Below the pieces are notes generated by a model. The model was not told the origin of the DNA. It worked only from the letters and a program-made list of their open reading frames with translations, and made no database searches. A DNA stretch of 64,000 bases from a virus (Duplodnaviria; Heunggongvirae; Uroviricota; Caudoviricetes): IMG/VR virus record IMGVR_UViG_3300028832_000101, positions 49,380 to 113,379 of that record, one strand, 5' to 3'. The position numbers and the translations under genes were made by a program. Shown here in pieces: positions 27,393 to 60,590 of the stretch. Numbering within the stretch: position 1 is the stretch's first letter; each line of letters begins with the position of its first letter.

Positions 27393-27394
27393 AT

Positions 27395-33472: not shown

Positions 33473-34043
33473 TATAATAACTCCTTATTATAATACTTTA
33501 AAACAAACAAAATCTTTGGCTAAAGTATTAGAACCACAATTAACAGAAGATATAGAATGAATTATAATAGATGATGGATGTCATGAAACTGAATTAGATA
33601 CTATAAAAGCAACAGTTATTCATTTAGAGAATAATAGTGGCGGAGGAAGCGTTCCAAGAAATGTAGGCCTAGATACCGCAAAAGGTAAATATATTTTATT
33701 TATAGATAGTGATGATATGATAAAAAGAGATTATATTGAAACAATAGTTAAGAAAATAAAAACTGAAGATTTTGACTATTGTTATTTTGGTTGAGAATCT
33801 CATGCTTTTCATATAATCATAACAGACCAACCGCCTGCATGAAATTGTAGTATTTGAAATTGTATATATAAGAGAGAATTAATAGGTGATATTAGATTTA
33901 ATCCCGATTTAAGAATTGGAGAAGACCATGAATTTAATAATAAAGTAAGACATGGTAAGTGCGCACATATCCCTAAAATTCTATATTATTATAGTGATAC
34001 TCCTAATTCTTTAATAAAGCGAGGTAGTAAAGATGTTTTATAA
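33447..34043 (+). CDS. family 2 glycosyltransferase (four in-frame TGA)
   Basis: LISIITPYYN...IIIDDGC...FIDSDD GT-A fold motifs. Confidence 0.7.
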
Positions 34044-35148
34044 TAATATTTATTATTTTTATTATCTTTCAGATATAGGTGGAACTGAAACCTTTTTATA
34101 TGAATTATCAAAAAAATATTGTAATTATGATTTAACCATTATATATAGATATGCAGACCCTAGACAATTGGAAAGATTAAGAAAATATGTAAGATGTGTA
34201 GAATTTGTAGATGGTATGGTTATTAGATGTAAAAATGCTTTCTTTAATTATGGAATAGATATTATTGATAATGTAGAAGCAACAGATTTTTATACTTTCG
34301 TTATCCATGCTGACTATGAAGATATGAAAAATAGAGGACAATTATCAAGTAAGATACCTGACCATCCTAAATTGAATAGATGGATCGCGGTAAGTAAGCG
34401 TGCAGCTCAAGGCTTCCATGCAGTAACAGGAAAAAAAGTAGAAGTATGTTATAATCCTTATGAAATTAGAAAGCCTAATAAAGTTTTAAATTTAATTTCC
34501 GCAACTAGATTATCAAAAGAAAAAGGTAAAGATAGAATGATTCAATTTGCAAAACTATTAGATAAAGCTGGTATTAAATATATATGAACCATCTTTACGA
34601 ATGATAAGAATGAAATTAAAGATAATCCAAATATTATATATATGAAACCTAGATTAGATATTTTAGATTATATTGCTAATGCAGATTTTCTAGTTCAGCT
34701 ATCTGATAATGAAGGTTTTTGTTATAGTGTAGTTGAATCATTATGCGCGGGAGTCCCTGTTATAGTTACTCCATGCCCTGTATTTGATGAAATAGGTTTA
34801 ATTGATGGAGAAAATTGTTGGAAAGTTCCTTTTGATGTTACAGGATTTGATCCACGTAAATTGATAGATAAACCATTAAAATTTAAATACACTCCACCTG
34901 CAGATTCTTGGGATAAATATTTAAATAATGCACCTAGCACATGGCAAGAAGAATTACATACTAAATATAAAGTAATGGCTACTAGTGCTTATAAAGATAA
35001 TCATATTTCAGATAGCCAGTTACGTAAAACTCCAGAGCCTGGAGACACATGGTGGGTTACTCCAGAAAGATTAAGAATCTTGCTAGGAGAAAATTCTAAA
35101 AGAATAAAATTTGTAAAAGTAGTTGAGAAAGTCGTTTCAGAAGAATAA
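34033..35148 (+). CDS. GT-B fold glycosyltransferase (GT4/GT1-like), one in-frame TGA joins track ORFs 34033-34587 and 34642-35148
   Basis: SDNEGFCYSVVESLCAGVPVI motif. Confidence 0.7.
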
Positions 35149-44858: not shown

Positions 44859-44887
44859 AAGATAGATAGTTAAAATCTATCTATCTT
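44859..44887 (-). terminator. intrinsic terminator aagatagatag-ttaaaat-ctatctatctt + T-run (minus strand)
   Basis: 11 bp stem; contains stop of gene 44886-46643. Confidence 0.6.
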
Positions 44888-46643
44888 AACTTCAACCATT
44901 TTCAGCTAAAGTTGTTCATTCAGAATAAGTTTTACATTTATTTTGTTGTGTAGAACTTAATCCAATATAAGTTAGTGTCTTAGTTCCAGTATAGTCGCTT
45001 GTTAAAGTTGCTAAAGAAGCTAAAATATTATGCAAACTTGTATCACTAAGTTTAGTACAACTACTAAACATATATTGACATGTTTTTGCTTTTGGCATAT
45101 TTATTACTGGAACACTATCTAATTTACTACAACTTTTAAACATAGAATTAAAATTAGTACAAATTGGAGTTAAAATTGTACTTGGAATATCTGTTATTTC
45201 GGAACAAGAATTAAACATATAACTACAATTTGTGCATTTAGATAAATCTAAACTACTAGGTATTGATATTAATTTACTACAATAATTAAACATATAACTA
45301 CAATTTGTAGCTTTAGATAAATCTAAATTACTATAAATATTAGTTAACGCCCTACAATAATAGAACATATTTGATAATGAACCAGTACAATTAGATGTAT
45401 TTATTCCACTTGGAATAGTAGTTAATAATTGACAGCTATAAAACATATAAGAAGCTTGTGTTAAACTAGGTAAGTTTATTGTAGAAAGAGTCGTTAATTT
45501 TGGGCAATAATTAAATAAACTGTTAGCATTAGTACAATTTGGAAGATTTAAAGGGATAGACATTTGTTCTAAATTTGAACAACTTGAAAACATCCCACTA
45601 ACAGATGTAGTTGTACTTGGAATAGTTAATGAATTACTATCTATTTGTTTTAATGCTGAACAACCTAAAAACATATTACTAAAATCAGTACCAGAAGATG
45701 TATTTATATTTTTAACTTGTTGTAATTTAGTACAATTATAAAACATTTGAGAAACAATTGTTGCAGATGAACAATCAATATTTTCAACTTTTATAAGATT
45801 ATTACAATTATAAAACATTTGAGAAACATTTGTGGCGGTAGAAAGATTAATATTATTTACTTCTTCTAAAGCAGTACATCCATAACAAAATTGTCTTCCT
45901 GATGTACTTTGACATAAAGGCATATTTATATTAGATAATTTTTTTAAATTAGTATAATTTTTAAATCATGTTGAAATAGTTGAAGTAACACTTGCAAGAT
46001 TATATCCATCTATTTCTTCTACTGTTGTTGGGAAAAATTTAATTCCTGAAGTTAAACCTGATAAATTTATATTATATACTTTTTTTATATTAGAACAATT
46101 ATAAAACATAGAACTCACATCATTATAATTAGTTATCTGAGACAAATTAATATCTTTAATAATTTCTAAGTTTGTACAATTTTGATACATATAAGAACAT
46201 CTAACTGCTTGAGAAAAATCAAGAGCAGGAGTTTCTTTTAAACCAGTACATCCACTAAACATGCCATAAAAATCTCTTCCTTTTGAAGTATCTAACGTTC
46301 CTGCAGGAATTTTTTCCAAGCTTTGACATTTATTAAACATATAATTAAAAGTTATTCCATTTGAAGTATTTATAACTGGAATATATTTTAAATTTTTACA
46401 ATTAGTAAATAAATAAGAAAAGTCATCAAGAGTGCTATAATTACAATTTTTTATAAAAGATGCATCTTCAAATAAAGAATTTCCAAATTTTATTTTATTA
46501 GAAATAGCAGAAGGAGTAGATGAAGTATTGATAATAGTATCTGCCATATCTCTAGGTTTATATACAGCATTCAAATTGTTAGTTTTAATTCTTAATGCAT
46601 CAGCAATATCTGTTAAACTATTTTCATCTATTAAAACATTCAT
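44886..46643 (-). CDS. BspA-type leucine-rich repeat (LRR_5-like) Cys-rich protein, about 585 aa
   Basis: repeated NMFxxCxxLxxI units; track ORFs 44916-45923 and 45966-46643 bridged by TGA; RBS aaggaggt. Confidence 0.6.
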
Positions 46644-46658
46644 ATTTTAAACCTCCTT

Positions 46659-47786
46659 CTAATATCCTGTAGTCCAGCCCATGGCTTCTAATGCCGCCCA
46701 ATTTGATAAAGATGTACATGTAGTAGCTTGACTTTGAGAAAGTCCTATATGAGCTAAAGTTTTAGTTCCTGTGTAATTAGTTGCTGTTGAAAGTGTTTGT
46801 AAAATATTATTTAGACTAGTGCTTGTAAGATTTGGACATCCAGAAAATATGTCCATTAAAGAATATTGATTTACAACATTTGGAATACTAAAAGCAGGAA
46901 TATCTCTAAGCGCATCGCAATAAGCAAACATATCTTCTATATCTTCTGCAGCGGGAATCGTAATAGAGCTAACTGACACAAGATTATAACAATCTAGAAA
47001 TGAACAATTAAATCCAGTTGCTTTTGGAGCATTTAAAGATGGAATTGAAGTTAAACCATGGCAAGATACACAAATATTATCCAAATTAATCGCCTCTGGT
47101 AAACTTCAATTAGGGAAAGTAATTAAACCGCATCCTTGAAAAGTGCCATCAAAATCTTGTCCTTTAGAAACATTGTAAACAGGAATAGTTGTTAAATTAC
47201 TACATCCTGCAAACATTCATCGAAAGCTTGTTCCGTTAGAAAGATCAAAATTACTTGGAGAAGGAAGAGTAGTTAATTGAGAACAGTTTGCAAACATATT
47301 TGCAAAAATAGTTCCTTTTCCAACTCTCATTCCTTCAAAAGTTGTTAAATTATTACAAGCCTGAAACATGGTTCCAAAATTAGTACCATTTCCTGTTGGT
47401 AAAGAATTTCCTTGTGCTAAAGTTATTGTTTCTAGATTACTGCAACCTGAAAACATACCACTAAAATTTAAACCTGCATCAGCAGGAGTTGTACTTAAAT
47501 AAGGGAAAAAATTTGTTCCTACTCCAGTATTGGAAAACATGCCACTAAAGTCAGTTCTATTTCCAATAGGATTATTTGAAACCATATTAAACATATAAGC
47601 CATTGCAGAAAGGTCGCTTCCTGAATTCCCAAAACTTATAGTATTAATATCTGCTTGGGAAGAAGTTGAACTAATTGCATCTGCCATTTCTGCAGGTTTT
47701 AATTTTAAATATGGATTTCCTTTTACTGTTCTAATTGCATTTGCAATATTTTTTAAAGCAATTTCATTTACTCAAACATTTGCCAT
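46659..47786 (-). CDS. second BspA-type LRR protein, about 375 aa
   Basis: track ORFs 46659-47084 and 47217-47687 merge via TGA; ATG 47784-86 overlaps stop of upstream collar gene. Confidence 0.55.
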
Positions 47787-48430
47787 TAATATTCAACCTC
47801 ATTCCCATTTATATTGCTATTAAATAAATTATTTATATACGCGCAACTATAAGCATCTGTTGTACTTGTAGAAAAATCATCTACTACATTTGAGAATGTT
47901 GCAACAGTATTTTTCGCTTTAATTAAATAATTTACTACAATATATGGTTGTAAGTTTGTATGAGCTTCATCTCCTCCAGTATTATTTGATGTTACTGTTG
48001 CTGATACATGATCTGGACCATCTGCAGGTGGATATTGTCCTGGGTTAGATGTAAAATTTTGATCATCAACAGTTCCTAAATAAGTACTATGAGAATGACT
48101 AGGTATTTGAGAAACAGTTAAAGTAACTTCTTTTACTCCTCCTATTTCTCCAAGCGTATCAAATTCTGTCTGAGTTAAATCTAATCCAACTCCAACTCTA
48201 CCTTTTTTATTAGGTATATTAAATGTAGTACTTCCATCTCCAGCTCCATAAGTTGTTCCTATTACATCAAATAATTCATTATATTCAGTTCTACTTATTG
48301 CACTACCATCACATATTAATCAACCAGTAGGAATAGAAGAACCATAAAATTCAATCCCAGTTCCAATAGCCATACTATCAAGAGCTTTTATTGCAAGATC
48401 TACTCATTGTCCATTGTATTTAAATTTCAT
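47786..48430 (-). CDS. phage tail collar domain protein, 214 aa
   Basis: IPTGWLICDGSAISRTEYNELFDVIGTTYGAGDGSTTFNIPNKKGR...SHSHS...NLQPYIVVNYLIKA; both in-frame TGA fall on conserved Trp. Confidence 0.7.
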
Positions 48431-48444
48431 AATCTGTCCTCCTC

Positions 48445-51400
48445 CTATAATGATGATGATGCTTTTGTATATTCTAATACTATAAATATTTTATCAAAGG
48501 TGTCTGTAAAAGTAGTTACAGAAGTTCCTAGATTAATATATATTTTAAGATTATCTATATCAAAAGAACATTTATCTCTTGTAGAATTATAATATCCTAA
48601 TTTAGCATATCCAACAGGAAGGTCTTCTTCAGCTGGATATCTTAAATATGAATGAGTATAATCTATAAAAATCATATCTGCCCCAAGATTTGATATATCA
48701 ACCTCATTATTTGAAGATGTAATAATATCGTTTGGATCATATTCAACACATATTCTATAAATAGGTTTTCCATCAATTCATATTTTATTAGTTAAAGTTT
48801 CAGTAGTAGAGAATACATCTGGTTCACTACCTCCACCACCACTTGCAGAAGATACTTCATTTGGATTAATCCATAAAATTGCGTTTCCAGTTGGTTGAGT
48901 AGTAGATATTGAAATTTCATTATTGTCAGATGCAGCAATATGTAAAGAATTTGCTGTTCTTGTTATATAATACATTTCATTGCGTTTTGTTGTATTATTA
49001 AATATATATGCAAGAGCAGGTTTATTTAAAATCATATTATCTCAATCCCCTATAATCAAAGAGTTTGCAGGGAATGTAAAAGTTGTAGATTGAGAAGTTT
49101 GTGTATCTGTATAAGTAATTGTTATTGGAGATTTTACTATTGTAGCAGAAGAATTAAATAATTGTTCATTATTAGTTACAGAATCAACTACATTTATTCT
49201 AAGATTTAAATCTATGGCGTCTACAGGGGATTCATCTGTAAATATAGTAGTATTTGTAACATTTGAACCATTATATGTGAACATTTTATATCCATAATCA
49301 CTAACTACAATAAATGTTATATAAGGTTCATCTGGATCTGCAGTAAAATTATAACAACAAATTGCAGATTTTGCTCCAAAATCTATATATCTAGAATCTC
49401 CAACTCTTATGCGGAAGCTTGCGCCTCCACCTCCGACAACATAATAATGAATTCCTCTAGGAAAATCTACAGGTCCATAAGCACCATTAATAGTTTCAAA
49501 AAGAATTCCATCTGTATTAGAAATAACATTATTTGCATCTATATTGATTCCAGTACCAGCAGTATAACTAATATCTCCAAGTTCAATTTTGTTTTTAGTT
49601 ATAGTTCCAGTTACCCAAGTTGTAGGATCATTTCCTGATAAAATAAATTCATAATAATAAGTATCTCCAGCAGTCTCATTTAAAATTCCTAAATTTCCAA
49701 TAATAGTAAATACCATTTTGTCTGTCGTATCTCCTGAAGCCTCTCCATGAGAATAAGGTACATAATAATTTTCTGACTTTTGTAAAGTAGTATTTATATT
49801 CGAATATTGTAAATATAATTGTTCATTCATACTAGCAGATTGTAACGAAGCTAAATTAGAATAAACTGTTCCTTTATTATCAGTTGCATTTATAGTAAAA
49901 GTTCCATTAACAGCATCTATAGATAAAATTGGCATAAAAATTGCTTCATCTTTATGTGTACTAGTTGTCTTTGTATAAGTTTTTGTACTACTTGCCACAG
50001 TTAAATTTACAGAAGTAAAGACATCTTGCCCTACACTTGGAGCCTGATATGGTAAAGTAGTTGAAAATATTGCAGTGTTATTTGTACTTATATTTAATAA
50101 AGGAATATATAAAAATACATTTGTACTTTTTTGTCATTTACCAATAACTTGGTATCCTTGAGAAACTAATGTAGCAATTTCTGTTCCAGTATAATTAGTT
50201 GCATTATTACTATCTAAAGTAACAATAGCAGTAGGTTTAATATCATAATCAGTTCCGAAATCAGCTTGAGTCATTGCGGAAGCCGCAGTTACATGACCTT
50301 CTGCATTAGTAGTTATTTTATATAAATCACTTGTAAATGCACTACCTTTTGCAGTTGCATGGTCATATGCAATTTTACCTCTATCTCCACGATATGCAGT
50401 TGATTCAGTTTCTCCTAAAGCCAAATCTGAAGCTACTACAACATATATAGAACCTGACCATCTATAAGATTTATTAGTAGATAAATCTACATATATTTTA
50501 CCTGATTCTGGAGTAATCTCTGTTGTATAAGTAGATTCTTTATAGAATTTACCATCTGTTAAATTATAATAACCTTCAATAATATCATCTACATAAGCAG
50601 GTAATTGCGAGCTAGGAACCTTTCCAGAACTATCAAGAGTAGCAATTCCATTAGCTTGACCTAATTTTGCATTGTCTGCAGGAGTAAAACCTAATGCAGC
50701 AATTATTGAATTTGAGCTTACTTCATTCCAATATTCATATTCTAAACTATCTTTTGATAAATAATAAATTTTATTATAGTCGCCAACGGAAAATAATAAA
50801 TTTGCTATTCCCATATTACCATAATCTGTATTTAAAAAATTATAAGTCATATAACCTAATTTATCAGTTTTTAAGAAAGCTCCATTTTTTAATATACAAG
50901 TTGCCTCTCCATCAAAACCATCAAATTCAGGTAAAGCAATTCTATCTTTCCATTCTTGGAAAATATAATTACTATTATTTTCAATATAACTCTTTATAGG
51001 TAAAGTATTATCTTTATAGAAAGTGAATTTATTTATTGTTCCAAAAATAGTTGTACCTGGACAATATTCTCCCCAAGAGTCTTCATACTCTAAAAAATTA
51101 ATACCTCTTACATCAATATTTACATTACAAACATCTGGATAAACATAATATGTTTTAATTTTATCTGGGTCAAAAATAATAATTTCATTATCTTCATTAT
51201 CACCATCTTTATAAGTTTCAGAATTTCCATTACTATCAATGACAGTCCATCCACTATTTGATAAATTTAAAATTGCATAACTATTAGCAGGGATTGCATA
51301 AATAGGAACAACTACATCAGTTCCATAGCTTGTCTTTCCTTTAAATAACCAAAAACGAGTAATATTTTGTCTACCTTCATAAACAAAAGTAATTCCTCAT

Positions 51401-52020
51401 CTAATAGAAGAATCCACATCATTATCAACATATGCAGAAGTAGTCCATTCAATAGAGGTTGGATTTCCTATCTCATTAAATTCTCCAGCATTAATTCTTA
51501 CATTCATTATTTCTTTTCAATTAGATATATATTTTCCTCTAATATTGGCATTAGAACTATTTCCTTGTAAACTATGTAATTCATTTATGTTTTGTTTTAA
51601 ATTTGAAATTGTATATAGACCAGTTGCAGTTGTATCTTCTGAACGTCTATTAGGATTTATAATCTCAGGTAGATCTGCTAAACTAGATACATGACCGCCA
51701 TATATAATTGAATCATATAAATTATATATATCTTCAAAACTAATTTTTTCTTGAATTGCATTAGTTAAAAAATATATCATATAATTTATTTCGCCTTTGT
51801 CATAATAATTAGCTAAATTACTTACCATTCTAGTAATATAATTACTACCATTATCTAACTCTGCAACATCAGTAGGCATAATTTGAATTCGTTGCTCTGA
51901 ATCTAAATCAAGATAAATTAATTTTTTGTCTGTTATAAAAAATATATTTCCTTTTTCCTTATCATAAGTTGCTAATTCATTATAAGCAATTCTATAAGGT
52001 TTAAAAATATCTTGTGCCAT
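48445..52020 (-). CDS. very large structural protein, about 1191 aa (tail fibre/host-specificity-like)
   Basis: track ORFs 48445-48675, 48778-49035, 49042-49998, 50134-50850, 51517-52074 all one frame with TGA at every junction checked; ATG 52018-20 with RBS aaaggagg. Confidence 0.5.
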
Positions 52021-52094
52021 TTTTAATCCTCCTTTTATATCTATGCGGTGGCCGGTTAAAAGATTCTTAGACAAGGCTCCCGCAATATTTTTTA

Positions 52095-52159
52095 TTTTTT
52101 ATCTTACTAAATAATATTAAAAATTAATTAAATTCATTAGTTATTTTAGGCCAAATAAA
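52095..52159 (-). promoter_or_regulatory. conserved bipartite late-promoter-like motif, copy 3
   Basis: identical box B; box A TTTATTTGGCCTAAAAT. Confidence 0.5.
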
Positions 52160-52161
52160 AA

Positions 52162-52181
52162 AGATAGTATCTCTACTATCT
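52162..52181 (-). terminator. intrinsic terminator agatagtatctctactatct + T-run (minus strand)
   Basis: contains stop of GT2 gene. Confidence 0.55.
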
Positions 52182-53255
52182 ATAATCATCTTTTGTGCAC
52201 AAGTTTATTCTAATATTATTTTGTTTATATTTTTTTGGTATTTTCTTTTGTATCTTTTTTAAATCTTCTTCTTCATATATTGATGCATTTAAATCTTTAA
52301 CATATTGATCTATTGTATATTCTTCAGCTTCACCATCATATTGAATTTCATTTAAGAAAGCTTTAAAATCCTCTACTGGAATTATTCTTTTTATTTTAGG
52401 TAAATAGCATAAATGATAAAATTTATAACAATAGTATTTAGCTTGGTCTATAAAGAATTGTTTTTTAGATTTTACTATCTCTTTTAATACATCATAAAAA
52501 TCTAATAATCTATAACAAAAGAAATAGATTTCATCTTCTTCTTTAATATTATCTAATCCACCTTGTTCTAAAACATAAATTGAACTATCTACCATTCCGC
52601 AAATACTTCTATCTATTAAGAATTGTTTATCATTACCACGTACTAATGAATCTTTATGGTATGCTCAAAAATAAGTTGGAGTATTTATTACACCAAGAGA
52701 CTCTCCTTTATAAAAACTTTTCATTTCAAATAACATATTAAATCCAACATCTTCATTAGCTCTAAAAGGCGGAAACCATATATTATTATCTTCAATAAAA
52801 TTTCTTCTATATAATCTTGCAAATACATGAGAGTCAACTTCACCATTGATAGCGCCAAATTCACAATTCTCATTTTCTTCTAATATATCAGACCTTAAAA
52901 CAATTAATTGTTTATTATCTTCCATTATTCCTAACATTTGCTCTAATGATTTAGGTAATATTAAATAATCATCAGCATCAACAAACATTATATAATCATT
53001 TTTAGTATTTTTCATACCCTGATTTCTAGCTTCACCAGGCCCGCAATTCTTATCTAATTTAATTTCTTTTATATCCATAAAATTAGAAAATAATTTAATA
53101 GTATCTTGATAATCTCCTTCAGGACAACAATCATTAACAATAGTAACATCTACTTTATCAATAATAGATTGTATTGCTATTGAATGTAAAGTTTTTTCTA
53201 TTGTCTTATGTGCTTTATAGGCGGGAATTATTATATCTATTTTTTTATCTTTCAT
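52176..53255 (-). CDS. family 2 glycosyltransferase embedded in tail module, about 359 aa
   Basis: IIIPAYKAHKTIEKTLHSIAIQS, VNDCCPEG, FVDADDYL; track ORFs 52176-52595 and 52665-53255 joined by TGA. Confidence 0.65.
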
Positions 53256-53295
53256 ATAAAGCCTTCTTTCCTTATCTTTATTATATCATAAAATT

Positions 53296-53340
53296 CATAA
53301 AAGGTCAAAAAAAAAGACTACTGACTAACAGTCAATAGCT
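53296..53340 (-). terminator. intrinsic terminator gactgttagtc + T9 (minus strand)
   Basis: hairpin then ttttttttt. Confidence 0.5.
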
Positions 53341-53669
53341 CCTTTAAATTCAGGTAATGTTTTTAAATAATTATACCCATCTGTTACAGTAAAATCTTCA
53401 ACATATTCTGGTAACATATACCATTTTAATTCTTTAAAAGTATTACTTCCTTTTAGCCATAATTGTTCTTCTGCTGGAGTGATAGGTTCATCATTATCTA
53501 TTTTCTTTTGAATAACCTCAGCTTCAGCTTCTAATTCTCTTTTAGATTCATCTATATATGAGTATAATTGAATTCCTGTACTTTCATTTGTTTTATTTGT
53601 AATTTCATAAATTCTATGGTATGAAACCATAACTCCATTATATGCTTCTCTTTCTAATAATAAAGCCAT
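53325..53669 (-). CDS. hypothetical 114 aa protein
   Basis: intact ORF; RBS aaaggagg. Confidence 0.6.
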   Translation of the reverse strand: MALLLEREAYNGVMVSYHRIYEITNKTNESTGIQLYSYIDESKRELEAEAEVIQKKIDNDEPITPAEEQLWLKGSNTFKELKWYMLPEYVEDFTVTDGYNYLKTLPEFKGAIDC

Positions 53670-53683
53670 TTTAATTCCTCCTT

Positions 53684-54472
53684 TTATGCCGTTCTATTTC
53701 AAATATATACACAAACATAAGGTTCAATATTATCTGTATTACCTACATTTCCGCTAGGTGCTCCAGTAGTTCCAGCCGCAACAGTGTGAGTATGTGAACT
53801 TGTATGACTATGATTAAAACTATGATTATGAACCATTGTATGCGTATGATCTATTGAGTGTGTATGCCCATTTATACTATGAGTATGATTATATGTATGG
53901 CCATGTGAAAAATTCCACCATACATATCCCCAGAAGTCTGCATTTGTACCATCATGAGCATAACGTCTATTACCATCAGCCCAACCAATATAGATACCCG
54001 CAGCATCTGAATCACTTTGTCCATCTACGAACATTAATTGATCTGGTAATTCATCTCCTAGATTTCAAGATAAACCAGGGTCTGCAGCATCTAATCCTGG
54101 ATCTCTATCATCTGTATCAATAGATGCAGTTGATATTGTAGGACTTGTTGAACTTGAAGTTCCTGCAGCCGCTTGACTAACAGTAGGACTTGTACTACCT
54201 GATGTAATACTTATTGAGTGTGTATGCGCGGGAATGCTATAAGAACCATAACTAGTTCCTGCAGCATAAGTATGAGATGAATCTAATTGACCTGCGCCAA
54301 TTAATAGTCTACCTGCTCCATATGCAACCCATGTTCCACCAAATATAGAACCTGGATTTGTACTTGATGTAGAAATATATATACTTCCAATAGGATAAAA
54401 ATTATCTACATTTCAAATTTTTCCTGATATATGACTGTCTCCAGCCACAATTAAATCTTTTATAAATGCCAT
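53684..54472 (-). CDS. His-rich collar-domain tail protein paralog 1 (262 aa)
   Basis: N-terminus MAFIKDLIVAGD...YPIGSIYISTSSTNPGSIFGGTW, HTHSINGHTHSIDHTHT repeats, C-terminus EPYVCVYIWNRTA; RBS aggaggtg. Confidence 0.65.
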
Positions 54473-54484
54473 CTTCTACACCTC

Positions 54485-55276
54485 CTATGCTGTCCTTTTC
54501 CACATGTATACTCCGATACATGGTTGTAAGTTTCCTGAAGTTCCAGCTCCAGTAGATCCAGAAGTTCCTGTAAAAGTATGAGTGTGCGCAAAAGTATGAG
54601 TATGTGCTTCTATTGAATGTGTATGAGCACTTCCATGACTATGACTTGCGCTATGATGGTGACTGTATGAATGTCCATGATTTGCACTATGTGAGTGTCC
54701 CATCGCATATCTTATTTTTCTCCAAGAGTTACTTGATGTACCACTTGTTTTAAATTGATGGTAATCCGCAAAAGTAAACCAAATTCTTGAAGAACTATGT
54801 GAACCTTTTTGCGAACAGAAAAATCTTGTTGGAGAAGCAGCATCACCAGCTAATTCAGTACTACTTGTTGCTGAACTGTTTCCTGATGATGTACTTGAAT
54901 TTCCAGTATGTTCAGTCGTAGAACTTGAATTAAATGCATCTTTATTTGCTATTCCCATATCACCTGTGAGTGTCTCTGCAGCAGCCTCACTTGAAGTTGC
55001 AGAAATACTATGAGTATGGTCTTGTATATCTAAGGAACCGCCTTGTTCATTTGCGGCAATAGTTTTTGTTTTACTTTGCCCATCAGTTCCAGTCCCAACT
55101 CCCATTAATACTCTTCCAGTACTAAATACTTCTCAAGTACCACCAAAAATATCTCCTGGATTAGTTGAATTAGTTGATATATAAATAGAACCAATAGGAT
55201 AAATACTATCTACGAAATGCGCTTTTCCCGCAATTCTTAAATCTCCTTTTACTATTAAATCTTTAAAAAATGCCAT
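54485..55276 (-). CDS. His-rich collar-domain tail protein paralog 2 (263 aa)
   Basis: MAFFKDLIVKGD...YPIGSIYISTNSTNPGDIFGGT; GHSHSANHGHSYSHHHSASHSHGSAHTHSIEAHTHTFAHTHT; ends LQPCIGVYMWKRTA. Confidence 0.65.
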
Positions 55277-55292
55277 ATAAACCCCCTCTTTC

Positions 55293-56123
55293 CTAAGCCG
55301 TTCTCTTCCACATATATACACCTTGATAAGGTTGTAAATTATTTGCTGTGGTTTGGTATGTAATTGAAGGATGACCTGTAGAGCCTGAAATGGTATGACT
55401 ATGCGCGGCAATAGTATGGCTATGAGAGAATGTATGACTATGTGCAGCAACACTATGTGTATGTTCAGGAATTCTATGGTAATGACTAGGTACTGTATGA
55501 GAATGGGAAGGTAAACTATGATTATGAGACATATTAATATGCATATTTGCCCAACCATTTGTTGATGAACCACTGTCTTTAAATCTTCGATTACTACTCC
55601 ACTTAACAGCCGCTCTATCTCCACTGTTACTATAATAACACATATTATTACTTAAGTTATTTTGATGAGTCATGAAGATATTTCTTTGGTGGTCACCACT
55701 ATTACCACCTGCTCCAGACCAATTACCTGTTCCACCTGAAGTTCCGCCAGTATTCCCACTAGTTCCTCCACCAGTTAAGCCTTCAGTATTATCACCTGTA
55801 TTACCTGTCGTAGTTGAAGTAGTTGTATTATTTGCGGAAGTCATTGCCGCAAAACTATGAGTGTGTGTACCTATATTATAACTACCCCCTGTTGTTCCTC
55901 CAGTAAATGTTTTTGTAACACTATCTTTATCTGTATAACTACCTGCACCGATCAAAGAACGACCTTGTCCAAATGCTTCTCAAGTTCCTCCAAAAAGTTG
56001 ACTTGGATTTGTAGAGGCAGTAGACATATATATAGAACCTATTGGATACATACTTTCCAAAACGTTTATTTTTCCTATAAATCTGGCGTCTCCGCTGACA
56101 AATAAATCTTTTAAAATCGCCAT
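55293..56123 (-). CDS. His-rich collar-domain tail protein paralog 3 (276 aa)
   Basis: MAILKDLFVSGD...YPIGSIYMSTASTNP; HNHSLPSHSHTVPSHYHRIPEHTHSVAAHSHTFSHSHTIAAHSHT; ends LQPYQGVYMWKRTA. Confidence 0.65.
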
Positions 56124-56149
56124 ATCCTTCTACCTCCTTTTAATGAATT

Positions 56150-56212
56150 TCATATCCATTAAATATTATAAAAAATTGATTAAAATTGTTATTTATATTT
56201 GCCCAAATAAAA
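56150..56212 (-). promoter_or_regulatory. degenerate copy 4 of bipartite late-promoter-like motif
   Basis: box A TTTATTTGGGCAAATAT and diverged box B at the same 46 nt register. Confidence 0.4.
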
Positions 56213-56235
56213 AAAGATAGGCATAAGCCTATCTA
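56205..56235 (-). terminator. intrinsic terminator agataggcataagcctatct + T-run (minus strand)
   Basis: contains stop of gene 56229-56663. Confidence 0.55.
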
Positions 56236-56663
56236 GGAATCATACTAAAGTAATAATATACTTTATCTTCTTTTGCATCTTCATCACAAATAAAATCTTT
56301 ACTGAATTTAGCATAATATTCTACATTATCATTAAATAAATCATTGTAATCATTATAAGCACTATTCATTACGATTCAAAAGTCAACAGGTCTAATATTC
56401 TCATAATTATATTGTTTTCTTACTCCTTCAGTATCTTCAAGAGTTCATTTCATTCCATAAGGTTTCATATTTTCAATTAAACCTTTTGCTATTTCTTCGT
56501 TTAACACTTTGCCTTCAGACATTTCATATAATTTTCTTTCAATTTCTTCTTTATCAATAGCATTAGAATGCTCAATGATATGAGATATAAAATTAATTAA
56601 TTCATCTTTCTTATCATTATTATCTGAAGACATTATTTTACTGACATATTTTTTTATTTCCAC
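56229..56663 (-). CDS. hypothetical 144 aa protein (GTG start)
   Basis: track ORF 56445-56663 continues through TGA to TAG at 56229; RBS aggagg. Confidence 0.5.
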
Positions 56664-56675
56664 AATAGCCTCCTA

Positions 56676-57239
56676 TTATATTGATGTATAAGGACATTGA
56701 TAATAACAAGGAGGATTTAATACATATCTACCTTGTAAATTTAAAATTGAGTCAGTTGAGTTTTGAATAGCGGCAGTGATTGCTGCAGTTTGATTTGCGT
56801 TAGATAAAGCATCTCTAGTTGTTTGTAATTTATCACTTATTTCTCTAATATAGTTATCTTGGATCATTTGTCTAGTAGCATTTCCTTCTTGAGCAACTAG
56901 GTTGCCAATTGCGGCGATACTATTACTTAATTGTAATGACATATCTTTCATACTTACTAAATTATTATAAGCAGAGTTTAATACAGTATCAGTAATTCCA
57001 CATTGTCCTTGAGCTAATCCTCTGATTGCATTATCTTGAGATTGGAAATATAAGCTATTTTGTAAATCGCTTTGACCTAAAGCAGTTGCACTATTTCCCC
57101 AGAATCCTCCATTTCCACCAAATAATAAGATGAAAACGATAATTAATGCTAAAATACCATTTCCTCCAAATAATCCGTCTCCGCTACCTTTAGTTAATGC
57201 TAACACATCAGCAGCTGACATTCCTGTACTTTCATTCAT
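56676..57239 (-). CDS. Gly-rich membrane protein, 187 aa
   Basis: hydrophobic ILALIIVFILLFGG; RBS ggaagggga. Confidence 0.55.
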   Translation of the reverse strand: MNESTGMSAADVLALTKGSGDGLFGGNGILALIIVFILLFGGNGGFWGNSATALGQSDLQNSLYFQSQDNAIRGLAQGQCGITDTVLNSAYNNLVSMKDMSLQLSNSIAAIGNLVAQEGNATRQMIQDNYIREISDKLQTTRDALSNANQTAAITAAIQNSTDSILNLQGRYVLNPPCYYQCPYTSI

Positions 57240-57294
57240 TTTTCTTTCCCCTTCCTAAATATTATTTATTTATATATAATAAAAAGTTAGTTTC

Positions 57295-57519
57295 CTAACC
57301 TTTATTACCATTAATTAATCTAATCATTTGCGCAAGTTGTTCTTTACTTATTCCGCGTTCATTACACATCTTAGCGATAGCTTCCGCCTGTTCATTATTA
57401 GGTCTATTATTAATATTGTTAAAAAGTTGTAACTGTTGCGGATTTAGTAGACTTAACAACGCTTGTTGTGGTTGATTTGACATCATCACTTGCGACATTA
57501 GACTTTGTAGATTGACCAT
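57295..57519 (-). CDS. Gln-rich small protein, 74 aa
   Basis: RBS ggagggg; overlaps 3' end of next ORF. Confidence 0.45.
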   Translation of the reverse strand: MVNLQSLMSQVMMSNQPQQALLSLLNPQQLQLFNNINNRPNNEQAEAIAKMCNERGISKEQLAQMIRLINGNKG

Positions 57520-57877
57520 TTATAATCCCCTCCAACTCTTTCACTTTTGTTTCTAATTCTTCTATTTTTAAATCCTTTTCATCTTTAGGAATAATAATAT
57601 CATAACTTTTACTTATTGTTCCATCAACTTCTTTAATAGATATTTTCCCTTTATGTTCATCTATAAATAAAGTTTTTTTAGTAATAAGAATATTATTTAT
57701 ATCATCATCTTTTGTTAGATATTTTATTTCAATATCAGAAGAACTAGATGTATTAATGATATTTTGAACTGGAGCTTGTTGATTCATCAATCCTTGACTA
57801 TATTGATTTATCATATTTTCAATATTATCTTTTTGTCGATATAATTGATTAATCATTCCATTATAATTATAAGGCAT
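57419..57877 (-). CDS. hypothetical 152 aa protein with coiled-coil C-terminus
   Basis: RBS ggaagggga. Confidence 0.5.
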   Translation of the reverse strand: MPYNYNGMINQLYRQKDNIENMINQYSQGLMNQQAPVQNIINTSSSSDIEIKYLTKDDDINNILITKKTLFIDEHKGKISIKEVDGTISKSYDIIIPKDEKDLKIEELETKVKELEGIINGQSTKSNVASDDVKSTTTSVVKSTKSATVTTF

Positions 57878-58811: not shown

Positions 58812-60590
58812 TTATTCCTCCTTAAATTCATATGCATACATATTATTTGCGTTATCTACAAAACCGGCAGTGTCATATAATTGTTTTACATCTGCGGCAG
58901 ATAATGCAGTTGCATATATACGGAAGTCAGATAAACTACCATAATTTTTTGTATTTCAGCCTGTTCCTGTATAAGTGTTTCCAATTGAATTATTTAATAA
59001 TGGAATAGTAGTATCTGTATAAGTATTTTTTGTTAAAGTTTGTTCAACTCCATTTAAATATCATTTTGCCGTTCCTTTATTAAATACATATACTGCATGA
59101 TATCAAGTTCCTGCTGTTAATAATGAACCTCCTGCAGTATATTTACTTCTATAAGCTCATAATCCACAACCTTCACAATTTGTTGCTATTCATAAACCAG
59201 CCCCGGCAGGATTGTTATAAGGAGACATTATGCAACAATAACCACCATTTGAAGCATTGGGTTTTACTCAAAAAGAAATAGTTAATTCAGCCATATCAGG
59301 TATAGATAAATCAGTTTTTAAACCATCAATTCCTGTTGCACAGCTACTTCCCCCATTATATCTTGGTGCGGTAGAGTCAAAATTCAACGTTCCAACTTTT
59401 GTAGCATTATATCCATTTCCGCTTACATCAGTAAGTATCATATTATCAAAACCTAATTTAGAATACATAACATCACTTGAATTTGGTATTCAATCTGTTG
59501 CAACCTCTCCAATTTCAATTTTAGGATGTCTATACTTTATTGTTCCAGTAGTATCTCTCATAAAGAAACTTACATTTAAACCAGCTATATCATAATTTGT
59601 AACAGTTACAGTACAACTATATTTTACTCATCCAGTTGTAACTGCTGTAGGGATAGTTTTTCCGCCATATCAATCTAATCACTGATTGCTTCCCCCTGTT
59701 GTAGTATTTCTTGTAACAGACAGTTCAAAACCAACTCAAGGATTTGTAGTACCAAAGGTAAGTGCTTCTGTAATTTTATATTCCATAGAAAAAGTCAATT
59801 TTTTATTTTTAAAATCAGTTAATCCTGCAGTATCCATTGTTTGTGAAAAACTTATTCCAGATGCTTGAAGAGTATCAGAATGAAAAGTTACTTCATCTCC
59901 ATCAAAAGTATAAATTCCTGCATTAGTTTTATTAGACCAATCACTATTTTTAATATAATTTTTACCAGCTCCCATCTCCTCCAATTTATAATGACAAACC
60001 AATCCCTTTGAAATTTCTTTTATTTGTTTACGAGATAGGCATTCATCATATACACGTAAATCATTCATTACTCCTGTAATGATATTATTATTTTCTCCTA
60101 TATGAAAATCGGTAATTAAATACCCGCCTAATCCAGTATCTGTGTATAATAGACTTCCATCTACATAGGTGTAGAGATTTGCACCATTATAACTTACACA
60201 ACAATGATGTCAAGTTCCTTTTTGGCTTTCTTCAATTAATACTCTTGTCGCCTGCGTAACCCCAAAAGGTGAATTATTATGAAAACTACATGCTCTTGTA
60301 GATTGTGTTGCTTCAAATCTAAATTGAGCAGCAGCAGTTCCATCTGCTTGTTTACAAGTAAATCCAAGAGAATCGGCTCAATCTGATGTACAGCTATCTA
60401 CTTTTAATCAAAAACATATTGTGAAATTATCTAACCTAGATAAATTAGTAAAAGTAATTCTAGGAGATAAACTTAAACCCTTTCCGATTTTTCCTCCATT
60501 AGAATATGTAGGAGTTCCTGATACTGATAAAAAATCTATACCTTGATTTTTTAAGTTACCATTAAGAGGCAACCATACTCGTAAAGCCAT
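58812..60590 (-). CDS. tandem LamG/concanavalin-A-like lectin domain protein, about 592 aa
   Basis: MALRVWLPLNGN..., MNDLRVYDECLSRKQIKEI and C-terminal LSDFRIYATALSAADVKQLY are LamG hallmark motifs; track ORFs 59736-60068 and 60408-60590 joined by TGA. Confidence 0.6.

What the first reader, a model, noticed from the sequence alone, without database searches (positions are those of the whole stretch)
53684..56123. Three tandem paralogous collar-domain proteins with extended His-X-His repeat tracts
Three adjacent genes of 262, 263 and 276 aa share a conserved N-terminus (MAxxKDLxVxGD...YPIGSIYxSTxSTNPGxxFGGTW) and a conserved C-terminus (NLQP(Y/C)xGVYMWKRTA).

The middles are Ser/Thr/Gly-rich and variable. 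Each carries long alternating His tracts, for example GHSHSANHGHSYSHHHSASHSHGSAHTHSIEAHTHTFAHTHT.

The solitary collar protein at 47786-48430 has only a short SHSHS. HxH tracts in T4 fibre proteins coordinate metal ions in trimeric needles.

A triplicated, diversified His-zipper collar family suggests interchangeable receptor-binding tips or metal-dependent fibre assembly.
Basis: partly seen in the sequence, partly recalled or inferred. Interest (0 to 1): 0.7.

Follow-up and report, generated by a model that had tools for sequence, protein, structure and literature searches.

The report
Three histidine-ladder phage tail-fibre tips
Three neighbouring late genes of an uncultivated phage encode small tail-fibre tip proteins of the T4 gp10/gp37 design, whose conserved His-x-His ladders probably hold a row of metal ions that staple each trimer together; this is a clean new example of a known design, not a new kind of system.

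Summary
Genes A (55293-56123, 276 aa), B (54485-55276, 263 aa) and C (53684-54472, 262 aa) lie on the minus strand. They are each other's closest relatives at 39-45% identity.

All three match Pfam PF21939 (T4 Gp10_C) strongly and do not match PF07484 (Collar). Each has:
- a 24-aa N-terminal peptide;
- a split gp10-type "flower" core (first ~65 and last ~15 residues);
- a ~170-aa insert made of one proximal HxH, a Gly/Ser/Thr-rich arm, a ~45-aa hypervariable segment, and seven tandem xHxH[S/T]Φx repeats of 6-7 aa.

Every His is invariant among the paralogs and in orthologs down to 63% identity. In the His tract dN is ~0-0.04, while strain differences pile up in the hypervariable segment.

The topology copies the T4 gp37 tip, a collar domain with an inserted needle where seven HxH hold seven Fe ions. 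It also matches the SU10 short fibre.

Most likely these are three homotrimeric, metal-stapled receptor-binding tips. They are not swapped between strains, whereas neighbouring fibre genes are. Metal binding and trimer state remain untested. I rate this a new member of a known kind, of modest interest.

The parts
55293..56123 (-). Gene A, 276 aa (TGA = Trp at codon 48). Gp10_C-family fibre tip protein.
   Evidence: Pfam PF21939 E 5.4e-20, 73.2 bits. phmmer to T4 gp10 2FKK E 2.8e-4. SD AAAGGAGG upstream.
54485..55276 (-). Gene B, 263 aa (TGA = Trp at codon 48). Paralog of A at 45% identity.
   Evidence: PF21939 E 6.4e-18. SD AGAGGGGG. The longer ATG-started ORF running up to 55558 is a frame artefact overlapping gene A.
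53684..54472 (-). Gene C, 262 aa (TGA = Trp at codons 20, 136, 258). Paralog of A at 39% identity.
   Evidence: PF21939 E 6.3e-17 over residues 23-261. Identical to cluster representative P0121.
55383..55529 (-). A residues 199-247: seven tandem HxH repeats (SHNHSLP SHSHTVP SHYHRIP EHTHSVA AHSHTF SHSHTIA AHSHTIS). Proposed axial metal ladder.
   Evidence: His invariant in orthologs. dN 0-0.02.
54566..54700 (-). B residues 193-237: seven tandem HxH repeats with a 6-7 aa period.
   Evidence: dN 0.000 against dS 0.10-0.16.
53774..53908 (-). C residues 189-233: seven tandem HxH repeats with a 6-7 aa period.
   Evidence: Strain substitutions never hit a His.
55554..55694 (-). A residues 144-190: hypervariable segment between the Gly/Ser/Thr arm and the His ladder. 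Proposed distal receptor-contact knob.
   Evidence: Strain differences cluster here. dN 0.24-0.25, dS 0.51-0.55.
54725..54856 (-). B residues 141-184: the equivalent variable segment, less diverged than in A and C.
   Evidence: dN 0.07-0.08 in a window of residues 140-190.
53933..54064 (-). C residues 137-180: the equivalent hypervariable segment.
   Evidence: dN 0.18-0.20, dS 0.36-0.41 in a window of residues 140-186.
53325..53669 (-). 114-aa acidic protein, last gene of the apparent A-B-C unit. Candidate fibre accessory or chaperone; function not shown.
   Evidence: Follows the triplet in every related contig. Distant homologs sit immediately 3' of large tail-fibre genes in three other phage contigs. 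Its only family match is phrog_18037, of unknown function.
56215..56234 (-). Terminator-like hairpin plus T-run just upstream of gene A. It closes the preceding unit.
   Evidence: Region-wide, 5 terminator-like sites were found against 1.5 expected.
56165..56192 (-). Promoter-like site (ATAACA-16-TATAAT) upstream of gene A. Weak evidence.
   Evidence: Promoter-like sites are no more frequent than in shuffles, so this is only a consensus match.
53317..53339 (-). Terminator-like hairpin plus T-run straddling the stop codon of the 114-aa gene. It ends the A-B-C-114 unit.
47786..48430 (-). Solitary 214-aa Collar (PF07484) plus Gp10_C protein with one HxH. A related but distinct fibre tip outside the triplet.
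   Evidence: It lies in the block that is replaced in sister strain L012.

Best explanation
A, B and C are three separately translated late genes. They appear to form one transcription unit together with a 114-aa gene.

Each encodes a stand-alone tail-fibre tip:
- A 24-residue N-terminal peptide, conserved among the three, docks the protein to the tail. The partner is unknown.
- A gp10-type 'flower/collar' domain forms the trimer base. It is split into residues ~25-90 and the last ~15 residues.
- A ~170-residue insert leaves the base and returns to it as a long hairpin-like needle.

The insert has four segments:
- one HxH next to the core;
- an outgoing arm rich in Gly, Ser and Thr;
- a ~45-residue hypervariable knob, which would be the receptor-contact surface;
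- a returning arm of seven xHxH[S/T]Φx repeats.

In the trimer, the two His of each repeat from the three chains would point to the axis and bind one metal ion octahedrally, as Fe2+ is bound in T4 gp37. That gives up to eight ions per trimer, zipping the needle shut and making folding metal-dependent.

The three paralogs would form three homotrimers of equal stalk length with different knobs. The virion would then carry three extra binding specificities on one scaffold.

What is shown: gene structure, family membership, topology, conservation of the His residues and location of the variability. What is inferred: trimerisation, metal binding, receptor binding and homotrimer (rather than heterotrimer) state.
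For: Family membership:
- Pfam PF21939 scores 73.2, 66.5 and 63.3 bits against a cut-off of 27.
- PHROGs matches are tail and tail-fibre families.
- phmmer aligns both the N-terminal motif and the C-terminal strand to T4 gp10 (2FKK, E 2.8e-4).
- The family profile hits gp10 at 2.3e-19, SU10 short tail fibre gp16 (7Z47_I) at 4.9e-12 and the A-1(L) long fibre at 7e-6.
- The AF2 core has pLDDT 81-95.

Topology precedent:
- T4 gp37 D10 has the collar fold of gp12, also seen in regions of gp10 and gp11, and the needle D11 is an insertion into it.
- Seven Fe ions are bound along that needle, and the iron-binding His are essential (PMC6957217).
- T4 gp37 has exactly seven HxH in the tip, four of them in tandem on the returning arm. 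Lambda Stf has the same tandem GxHxH run.
- SU10 gp16 was described as resembling the gp37 tip and JUB59 C24, with two HxH pairs proposed to bind Fe2+ (PMC9509320).

Selection:
- All HxH His are invariant among A, B, C and orthologs at 92, 78 and 63% identity.
- In the His tract dN is 0-0.04 against dS of 0.10-0.30.
- The DNA shows at most weak tandem-repeat signal within the His tracts, so the tract is not recent slippage.
- The repeat pattern H-x-H-x-Φ places both His and a hydrophobic residue on the same face of a strand.

Variable knob: strain substitutions cluster in ~45 aa just before the ladder, with dN of 0.18-0.25 in A and C.

Family-wide pattern:
- 16 of 120 relatives, and 17 of the 150 best-scoring representatives, have tandem HxH runs of 4 or more.
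- The run lies on either arm, with a small-residue 7-mer repeat run on the other arm.
- The lengths of the two runs correlate (Spearman 0.60, n = 27, not corrected for phylogeny).

Context:
- The triplet sits inside a block of fibre and adhesin genes: Laminin_G_3, DUF285, Collar, and fibres of 956 and 1191 aa.
- The genes carry TGA codons, as late genes here do.
- Each has its own SD, and terminator-like sites flank the unit.

Origin: in 1.84 billion representatives, C is the closest relative of A outside A's own orthologs. The duplication is therefore lineage-specific.
Against: - No trimer model could be made. The monomer AF2 model is unreliable across the whole insert (pLDDT 41-58).
- There is no direct evidence for any metal, for its identity (Fe or Zn) or for virion incorporation.
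- Sequence homology to gp37 itself is not detectable (E 0.63). The gp37 parallel rests on architecture and published fold comparisons.
- The structural hits are weak outside gp10.
- The triplet is retained in every related contig, while adjacent fibre genes are exchanged in sister strain L012. It may therefore not be the main host-range determinant.
- A 24-aa N-terminus is short for a virion anchor, and no docking partner was identified.
- The central and tip domains of the closest 'solved' relative, SU10 gp16, were themselves AlphaFold models fitted into 7-15 Å maps (PMC9509320).
Confidence: 0.6

Rival explanations
1. They are structural baseplate connectors in the manner of T4 gp10 and gp11 (levers, pins or fibre sockets) rather than receptor-binding tips. 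The His ladder would only rigidify a strut.
For: - The matching Pfam family is named for a baseplate wedge protein.
- The best fold hits are gp10 and gp11.
- The triplet is part of the conserved backbone, while neighbouring adhesin genes are swapped.
- T4 genes 10, 11 and 12 are likewise sequential paralogs sharing this fold (PMC3004832).
Against: - The proteins lack everything N-terminal to the flower domain, which in gp10 (residues 1-400) makes the baseplate contacts.
- Substitutions concentrate in one exposed-looking segment.
- The closest characterised full-length relative is a short tail fibre with a predicted receptor-binding tip (PMC9509320).
- Many family members carry long fibre shafts N-terminal to this module.
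Confidence: 0.15
2. A, B and C co-assemble into one A·B·C heterotrimer. Each metal site would then be built from three different chains, and the tip would be asymmetric.
For: - All three keep exactly 1 + 7 HxH and the same segment order despite only 39-45% identity.
- They share N- and C-termini.
- They are adjacent in what looks like one transcription unit with similar SDs, which suits equimolar synthesis.
- A-B adjacency persists in a relative at 63% identity.
Against: - Repeat spacings differ: A is mostly 7 residues, B and C mostly 6. The distance from the first to the last tandem HxH is 41, 37 and 37 residues. In-register rungs would therefore need bulges.
- Arm and knob lengths also differ.
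- All characterised relatives (gp10, gp11, gp12, gp37, SU10 gp16) are homotrimers according to the literature read.
- An equal rung number is also explained by a shared length constraint.
Confidence: 0.1
3. The His ladder is functional but not a permanent metal site. It could be a pH- or metal-sensing switch whose protonation or ion loss triggers a conformational change on the cell surface, or a His-His stacking ladder.
For: - The His residues are under strong constraint, which does not specify the ligand.
- The 6-7 residue spacing is tighter than in T4 gp37, where it is 9-37 residues.
Against: Every experimentally examined HxH in related fibres and spikes binds Fe or Zn as a structural ion (PMC6957217; PMC9509320 citing T4 and JUB59; PMC11821841). 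Nothing here points to switching.
Confidence: 0.08
4. The tracts are low-complexity drift, or the genes are fragments or pseudogenes broken by TGA stops.
For: - Standard-code gene callers split the genes into pieces of 47, 206 and 220 aa.
- The middles are compositionally biased.
Against: - TGA falls on an invariant family Trp.
- Code 4 restores full-length matches to PF21939 from the N-terminal motif to the C-terminal strand.
- The His positions are invariant with dN near 0.
- None of 20,000 shuffles reproduces the HxH count.
Confidence: 0.02

Closest known systems
T4 gp10 C-terminal domain (Pfam PF21939 Gp10_C; PDB 2FKK, 5IV5)
   Same: - Direct sequence homology.
- The N-terminal motif YPIG.IY...NP...G.W..FGQG+.L.G and the terminal strand N.QPY..VY.W.R both align.
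- It is the best fold match.
   Different: - gp10 has ~400 further N-terminal residues that build the baseplate.
- Its insert is ~85 aa with no HxH motif.
- It acts as a lever and fibre socket, not a receptor binder.
- The proteins here are tip-only and carry an 8-HxH insert.
T4 gp37 long-tail-fibre tip, domains D10-D11 (PDB 2XGF), and lambda Stf C-terminus
   Same: - Same architecture: a collar/flower domain split by an inserted needle.
- One HxH next to the core, a Ser/Thr/Gly-rich outgoing arm, a variable tip, tandem (G)xHxH on the returning arm, then the closing strand (PMC6957217).
- Seven HxH bind seven Fe in gp37. Here there are eight HxH.
- The module size is similar (228 aa against 262-276 aa).
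   Different: - The gp37 base is the PF07484-type collar.
- Its HxH are spread over both arms at 9-37 residue spacing, whereas here seven sit on one arm at 6-7 residues.
- gp37 is the end of a 1026-aa fibre, not a free-standing gene.
Phage SU10 short tail fibre gp16 (PDB 7Z47 chain I)
   Same: - Near full-length profile match (E 4.9e-12).
- A small protein (267 aa) with HxH pairs and the same terminal strand.
- Described as a trimeric fibre whose tip resembles gp37 and JUB59 C24, with HxH proposed to bind Fe2+ (PMC9509320).
   Different: - SU10 gp16 has a 98-residue helical proximal domain that docks on the nozzle protein, and only two HxH.
- It is a single gene in a podovirus.
- Its central and tip domains are AlphaFold models fitted to low-resolution maps.
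T4 genes 10-11-12 (sequential paralogs sharing the flower motif)
   Same: Three adjacent genes on one transcript encode trimeric tail proteins derived from one primordial fold (PMC3004832).
   Different: - The T4 trio has diverged beyond sequence recognition and into different roles.
- A, B and C are still 39-45% identical with identical domain order, so this is a much younger, lineage-specific duplication.
T4 gp12 / PF07484 Collar-domain fibre tips ('microcystin-dependent protein' type)
   Same: - Related fold according to the literature.
- One HxH after the core. gp12 is the T4 zinc protein (reference list seen; the residue numbers are from my memory).
- The window's own 214-aa protein is of this type.
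   Different: PF07484 does not match A, B or C at E up to 1.

Membership tests
Pfam PF21939 Gp10_C (T4 gp10 C-terminal domain family) | Match to the family HMM above the curated gathering score | tested here: met
   73.2, 66.5 and 63.3 bits against a cut-off of 27. Orthologs in the database carry the same precomputed domain.
Pfam PF21939 Gp10_C (T4 gp10 C-terminal domain family) | Both halves of the split domain align to T4 gp10: the N-terminal YPIG...GxW...GxG+ segment and the C-terminal N.QPY..VY.W.R strand | tested here: met
   phmmer A against 2FKK: residues 14-66 and 252-275 align. Profile against gp10 E 2.3e-19 over the whole domain.
Pfam PF21939 Gp10_C (T4 gp10 C-terminal domain family) | gp10-like fold of the core | tested here: inconclusive
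   [not shown]
T4 gp10 as a baseplate wedge protein (functional membership) | N-terminal domains that bind gp7, gp11 and gp12 in the baseplate | tested here: not met
   Only 24 residues precede the domain. No other Pfam domain matches.
Pfam PF07484 Phage tail collar domain | Match to the Collar HMM | tested here: not met
   No hit for A, B or C at E up to 1. The solitary 214-aa protein hits at 8.6e-21.
gp37-type metal-stapled needle tip (T4 gp37 D10-D11, JUB59 C24) | Elongated domain inserted into a collar/flower domain | tested here: met
   About 170 aa lie between the two halves of the core. The definition comes from PMC6957217.
gp37-type metal-stapled needle tip (T4 gp37 D10-D11, JUB59 C24) | Several conserved HxH motifs per chain | tested here: met
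   Eight per chain, invariant in paralogs and orthologs. T4 gp37 has seven.
gp37-type metal-stapled needle tip (T4 gp37 D10-D11, JUB59 C24) | Homotrimer with each ion bound octahedrally by six His on the three-fold axis | not testable with these tools
   Only monomer prediction was available, and the insert has pLDDT 41-58.
gp37-type metal-stapled needle tip (T4 gp37 D10-D11, JUB59 C24) | Detectable sequence or fold homology to gp37 or C24 | tested here: inconclusive
   [not shown]
gp37-type metal-stapled needle tip (T4 gp37 D10-D11, JUB59 C24) | Variable receptor-contact tip between the two arms | tested here: met
   Strain substitutions concentrate in a ~45-aa segment before the His ladder. 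The receptor contact itself is not tested.
Tandem paralogous flower-motif genes (T4 10-11-12 type) | Sequential genes on one transcript encoding proteins with the same core fold | tested here: met
   The genes are adjacent with 12-16 nt spacers. Each has its own SD, and terminator-like sites occur only outside the unit. All three match PF21939.

The most novel reading that the evidence does not exclude
The seven 6-7-residue HxH repeats, all on one arm and packed against a Gly/Ser/Thr arm, may form a previously unresolved structural module. It would be a one-armed 'His zipper' holding about eight metal ions at roughly 2-nm intervals, denser than in any solved fibre.

The three paralogs may also co-assemble as an A·B·C heterotrimer, giving an asymmetric tip. 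In addition, their Ser/Thr arms may be glycosylated by the GT2 enzyme encoded two genes downstream.
Probability: 0.12. Interest if true: 0.6.

Novelty: new member of a known kind. Interest (0 to 1): 0.3.

Why it matters
If the model holds, these are about the smallest free-standing versions of the gp37-type needle tip: 262-276 aa, with no shaft. They would have a clearly delimited variable knob on a rigid metal-stapled stalk.

That would make them convenient for structural work on HxH metal ladders. It would also make them useful scaffolds for engineering receptor-binding proteins.

The model implies up to eight metal ions per trimer in each of the three paralogous tips. That bears on the idea that phage fibres sequester iron, here in a phage with an anaerobic ribonucleotide reductase, so probably from an oxygen-poor habitat.

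The practical lesson is that standard-code annotation cuts these genes into unrecognisable pieces, so this family is under-counted in TGA-recoded phages.

None of this overturns current understanding.

Tried and rejected
- Standard-code translation gives broken ORFs, so I rejected it in favour of TGA = Trp.
- The PF07484 Collar assignment is not supported for A, B or C.
- No cultured phage is closely related. There is no megablast hit in 50,697 phage records, and tblastn matches only the first ~80 residues.
- IMG/VR has only distant single-copy relatives.
I used ortholog P0001, which is 92% identical, instead.
- The monomer model was confident only in the core. It therefore says nothing about the ladder, and the fold searches are correspondingly weak.
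- The PDB holds no tight tandem HxH array. The nearest are SU10 gp16 and the A-1(L) long fibre, at non-significant scores.
- Recent DNA slippage was rejected as the origin of the repeats. The only array found is a degenerate 21-nt one.
- Recent horizontal acquisition does not explain the local GC rise to 0.37. The rise lies in codon positions 1 and 2, so it reflects amino-acid composition. GC3 stays low.
- The 114-aa downstream gene has no annotated family. Its few homologs follow large fibre genes that lack Gp10_C, so any chaperone role is only positional inference.
- A search for diverged orthologs of B found none.
- No tRNA, and hence no suppressor tRNA, lies in the window.
- The term 'His boxes' was not found in the paper library. 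That concept (Tétart and colleagues, T-even gp37) is cited from memory only.
Full report

Under the standard bacterial code the interval 53684-56123 contains only fragments of 111, 206 and 220 aa on the minus strand. Translating the whole interval shows that the first reading frame is interrupted at FGGT*EAFG. Reading TGA as Trp (code 4) restores three complete genes:
- A, 55293-56123, 276 aa;
- B, 54485-55276, 263 aa;
- C, 53684-54472, 262 aa.

The recoding is not a convenience:
- The TGA at codon 48 of A and B is the Trp of FGGTW, and that Trp is invariant in 120-123 aligned family members.
- C has TGA at three other Trp positions, including the near-invariant Trp of the C-terminal strand.
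- Across the window, ORFs of at least 100 aa hold 26,134 aa under code 4 against 19,206 aa under code 11.

Each gene has a strong Shine-Dalgarno sequence 6-9 nt before its ATG.

The shared N-terminus is as described. The shared C-terminus holds for A and B, while C ends in the variant NIEPYVCVYIWNRTA. Identity is 45% for A-B and 39% for A-C.

Each protein has 19-21 His arranged as exactly eight HxH motifs: one at residues 83-89 and seven in tandem at a 6-7-residue period. None of 20,000 composition-preserving shuffles reaches eight; the mean is 1.3-1.6.

The solitary protein at 47786-48430 has one SHSHS.

**2. What family are they?**

All three match Pfam PF21939 (Gp10_C, the C-terminal domain of the T4 baseplate protein gp10) at 63-73 bits against a cut-off of 27. 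None matches PF07484 (Collar) even at E = 1. The solitary 214-aa protein matches Collar at 8.6e-21, plus Gp10_C. PHROGs matches are tail and tail-fibre families.

Further matches:
- Protein A alone aligns to T4 gp10 in the PDB (2FKK, E 2.8e-4). Both its N-terminal motif (YPIG.IY...NP...G.W..FGQG+.L.G) and its last strand (N.QPY..VY.W.R) align.
- A profile of 120 homologs hits gp10 at 2.3e-19, the SU10 short tail fibre gp16 (7Z47_I) nearly full-length at 4.9e-12, Klebsiella phage KP1 gp10, and the A-1(L) long fibre. JUB59 C24 (6OV6) is a marginal hit at E 0.03.

AlphaFold2 on ortholog P0001 (92% identical) gives a confident core and nothing reliable for the insert. Core residues ~20-85 and 265-276 have pLDDT 81-95, while the insert has pLDDT 41-58.

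The family is very large: 8,487 50%-identity clusters at E up to 1e-3 among 1.84 billion representatives. Only two clusters score below 1e-30, namely A's own ortholog cluster and gene C itself. A, B and C are therefore each other's closest relatives, and the duplication is lineage-specific.

**3. Anatomy**

Each protein consists of:
- a 24-aa N-terminal peptide, conserved among the three;
- the first half of the flower core, ending in the family-wide HxH, whose two His are each conserved in at least 90% of relatives;
- a ~50-aa arm rich in Gly, Ser, Thr and Asn, with traces of 7-8-residue periodicity;
- a ~45-aa segment of ordinary composition;
- seven repeats of the form x-H-x-H-[S/T]-Φ-(x), which put both His and a hydrophobic residue on one face of a β-strand;
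- a short Gly/Ser/Thr linker;
- the closing strand of the core.

This is the arrangement published for the T4 long-tail-fibre tip. In T4, domain D10 (residues 811-881 and 1010-1026) has the collar fold of gp12, also seen in regions of gp10 and gp11. The needle D11 (882-1009) is an insertion into D10. Seven iron atoms are coordinated along the needle, and the iron-binding His are essential (PMC6957217).

I extracted T4 gp37 and found exactly seven HxH in the tip, at residues 883, 915, 929, 966, 980, 989 and 998. The first directly follows the collar half. The last four sit in tandem on the returning arm ([24 protein letters not shown]) before the closing ...NIAFNYIVRLA. Lambda Stf ends with the same kind of run.

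SU10 gp16, the nearest characterised relative by sequence, is described as a trimeric short fibre. Its central domain resembles the gp12 tip, and its distal domain resembles the gp37 tip and JUB59 C24. Two HxH pairs are proposed to bind Fe2+ (PMC9509320). Those two domains were AlphaFold models fitted to 7-15 Å maps.

The T4 tail review records that gp10, gp11 and gp12 share one primordial fold (the 'flower motif'), are adjacent in the genome and are made from one mRNA (PMC3004832).

**4. Are the His tracts conserved?**

Yes.
- In the alignment of A, B, C and A-type orthologs at 92, 78 and 63% identity, six of the seven tandem HxH are invariant columns, as is the proximal one. The seventh is obscured only by alignment gaps in B. 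The residues between the His vary.
- The same phage, or close strains of it, turned up in 15 metagenomic contigs of up to 137 kb. Every contig shown that is long enough carries the full triplet.
- Over 43325-63669 the window is 100% identical to an ENA contig of 137,249 bp.
- Between strains, the His ladder has dN of 0-0.04 against dS of 0.10-0.30, and no substitution touches a His.
- At the DNA level, only one degenerate 21-nt array (72% matches, in gene A) and a marginal 6-nt array (in gene C) overlap the His tracts. The ladder is therefore maintained by selection on the protein, not by recent slippage.
- The local GC rise to 0.37 comes from codon positions 1 and 2, meaning amino-acid composition. 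GC3 stays low, so recent foreign origin is not indicated.

**5. Where does variation go?**

Strain substitutions concentrate in the ~45-aa segment just before the ladder. In A and C that segment has dN of 0.18-0.25 and dS of 0.36-0.55. Elsewhere in those genes dN is about 0.05 or less. B shows the same pattern more weakly.

Raised dS together with raised dN suggests that short allele replacement contributes as well as point mutation. This is the pattern expected of a receptor-contact surface at the distal end of a hairpin-like needle.

The triplet as a whole is not a swappable cassette, however. In sister strain L012 (about 93% nucleotide identity) the block 50176-56333 is collinear and 92.5% identical. 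That block holds the triplet, the 114-aa gene, a GT2 glycosyltransferase and the first half of the 1191-aa fibre. By contrast, 44859-50176 is replaced by 5.6 kb of unrelated sequence. That replaced block holds the distal half of the 1191-aa fibre, the Collar protein and two DUF285 proteins.

A more distant relative, with an A ortholog at 63% identity, still has A followed by B.

**6. Family-wide view of the ladder**

HxH motifs are almost universal in the family; 119 of the 120 best word-indexed hits have at least one.

Tight tandem runs of four or more occur in a minority: 16 of 120 word-indexed hits, and 17 of the 150 best-scoring representatives. The longest has nine.

The run can lie on the outgoing or the returning arm. 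In either case the other arm carries a run of small-residue 7-mers such as PSNNTSG or GNTGAAS.

The lengths of the two runs correlate (Spearman 0.60, n = 27, p about 0.001). This test is not corrected for phylogeny and uses a crude definition, so I treat it as suggestive support for the two arms pairing along a stalk.

From geometry alone, 6-7 residues of extended strand span about 2 nm. Seven rungs therefore give a stalk of roughly 13-15 nm. T4 gp37 spreads its seven sites over about 46 residues of arm, which implies a similar spacing. This is inference, not measurement.

**7. Genomic setting**

The triplet lies in the late, minus-strand half of the window, among host-recognition genes:
- a 956-aa fibre;
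- a Laminin_G_3 protein;
- a 1191-aa fibre;
- the Collar protein;
- two DUF285 (BspA-like) repeat proteins;
- tail-tip proteins further on.

Terminator-like hairpins lie on the minus strand just before gene A (56215-56234) and straddling the stop codon of the 114-aa gene (53317-53339). The unit therefore looks like A-B-C-114. Terminator-like sites are enriched in the region (5 found against 1.5 expected). Promoter-like matches are not enriched.

The 114-aa protein has no annotated family. Its few distant homologs sit immediately 3' of large fibre genes in three other phage contigs with Gram-positive-type lysis genes. That is compatible with a fibre accessory or chaperone role but does not show it.

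The DNA polymerase is 39% identical to SPbeta YorL and to the polymerases of ~135-kb Enterococcus phages. The phage also encodes an anaerobic ribonucleotide reductase. I infer a large siphovirus-like phage of an anaerobic Bacillota host, but the host is not established.

**8. Most likely mechanism, and rivals**

Best reading (confidence about 0.6 for the whole chain of inference): these are three homotrimeric, stand-alone fibre tips. The split gp10-type domain makes the trimer base. The insert forms a needle whose axis is stapled by up to eight metal ions, each held by six His. The hypervariable segment forms the distal knob that touches the host. The short conserved N-terminal peptide docks all three to the same kind of site.

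Rivals:
- (a) Baseplate connectors rather than receptor binders (0.15). This is favoured by the family name, the gp10 and gp11 fold hits and the conservation of the triplet. It is disfavoured by the absence of any N-terminal baseplate domain and by the focused variability.
- (b) An A·B·C heterotrimer (0.1). This is suggested by the identical rung count and co-transcription. It is disfavoured by unequal repeat spacings (41, 37 and 37 residues from the first to the last tandem HxH) and by the homotrimeric precedent.
- (c) A His ladder that senses pH or metal rather than binding metal permanently (0.08).
- (d) Low-complexity drift or pseudogenes (0.02), which the data refute.

**9. Comparison with the known, and verdict**

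Membership in PF21939 is established. Membership in PF07484 is not.

The proteins work like the gp37, C24 and SU10 gp16 class of metal-stapled tips, by architecture and motif. Sequence homology to gp37 itself is not detectable (E 0.63).

Three features are less usual:
- the tip-only format;
- seven tightly spaced HxH on a single arm;
- a young three-fold tandem duplication, echoing the ancient T4 10-11-12 triplication.

No solved structure contains such a tight array. Even so, it is a quantitative extension of the tandem GxHxH runs of gp37 and Stf, and similar arrays occur in other unannotated family members.

I therefore rate this a new member of a known kind, of modest interest (0.3). It is right about fibre-tip identity, conservation of the tracts and the probable metal role. 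It is imprecise about the Pfam family, and wrong that the tips are the interchangeable elements.

Noticed in passing
Whole window; e.g. 55980-55982 (codon 48 of gene A) and 58812-60590 (14 TGA codons): TGA is recoded to Trp in a stage-biased way. Late minus-strand genes have 66 TGA against 66 TGG. Plus-strand genes have 15 against 109, and there are none in genes before ~23.6 kb apart from one at codon 5 of ORF 17592-18830 that probably lies upstream of the true start. No tRNA gene lies in the window. From memory, this fits the published pattern of stop-codon recoding restricted to late or lytic genes. Standard-code gene callers split A and B into pieces of 47 aa plus 206-220 aa in several public contigs.
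   Followed up: partly
27335-28345 (+), 33447-34043 (+), 34033-35148 (+), 52176-53255 (-): The window encodes four sugar-transfer enzymes: Stealth CR2/CR4, GT2, GT1 and GT2. All carry TGA codons, so they are probably made late. The last one lies directly after the A-B-C-114 unit and inside the block conserved with strain L012. O-glycosylation of the Ser/Thr-rich fibre arms is a speculative possibility.
   Followed up: partly
44859-50176 against L012 13460-19067: In sister strain L012 (~93% nt identity), 5.6 kb of unrelated sequence replaces this block. The block holds the distal half of the 1191-aa fibre, the Collar protein and both DUF285 proteins. The flanks are 92-95% identical. This looks like a host-range cassette exchange with a breakpoint inside the long fibre gene.
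   Followed up: partly
56333-57806: A 1.5-kb stretch is absent from strain L012. It covers three small genes: a 74-aa gene, a 187-aa predicted membrane protein and a 134-aa DUF7841 protein. It also reaches into the 3' part of a 152-aa gene. A more distant relative, L020, also goes straight from the 215-aa gene to gene A.
   Followed up: no
L003 2260-4527 (IMG/VR UViG_3300045988_139009): A 756-aa fibre carries 33 HxH motifs ('DHTHxxYA' every 12-25 residues along the shaft) and ends in a Gp10_C domain. His-ladder fibres can therefore be far longer than those in the window.
   Followed up: no
44886-47786 (-): Two adjacent DUF285 (BspA-like leucine-rich repeat) proteins of 585 and 375 aa share an N-terminal motif and a C-terminal '...YTGTKTL..IGLS...W..L...GW' ending. 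They form a second paralogous adhesin pair in the same module.
   Followed up: no
58812-60590 (-): A 592-aa Laminin_G_3 (concanavalin-like lectin) protein has 14 of its 16 Trp codons written as TGA, the highest density in the window. Its N-terminal part is diverged in strain L012.
   Followed up: no
19699-23649 (+), 24578-27392 (+): A PolC/DnaE-type polymerase is 39% identical to SPbeta YorL and to the polymerases of ~135-kb Enterococcus phages. Next to it lie genes that look like an anaerobic ribonucleotide reductase and its activase; I recognised these by eye and did not run them against Pfam. Together with related contigs of up to 137 kb, this suggests a large SPbeta-like phage of an anaerobic Bacillota host.
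   Followed up: partly
55133-55624 and 54485-55558 (-): Mechanical ORF calls produce a spurious 163-aa GTG ORF and a 357-aa ATG-started extension of gene B. Both overlap the 3' end of gene A in another frame. The real start of B is the ATG at 55276, which is preceded by an SD.
   Followed up: yes
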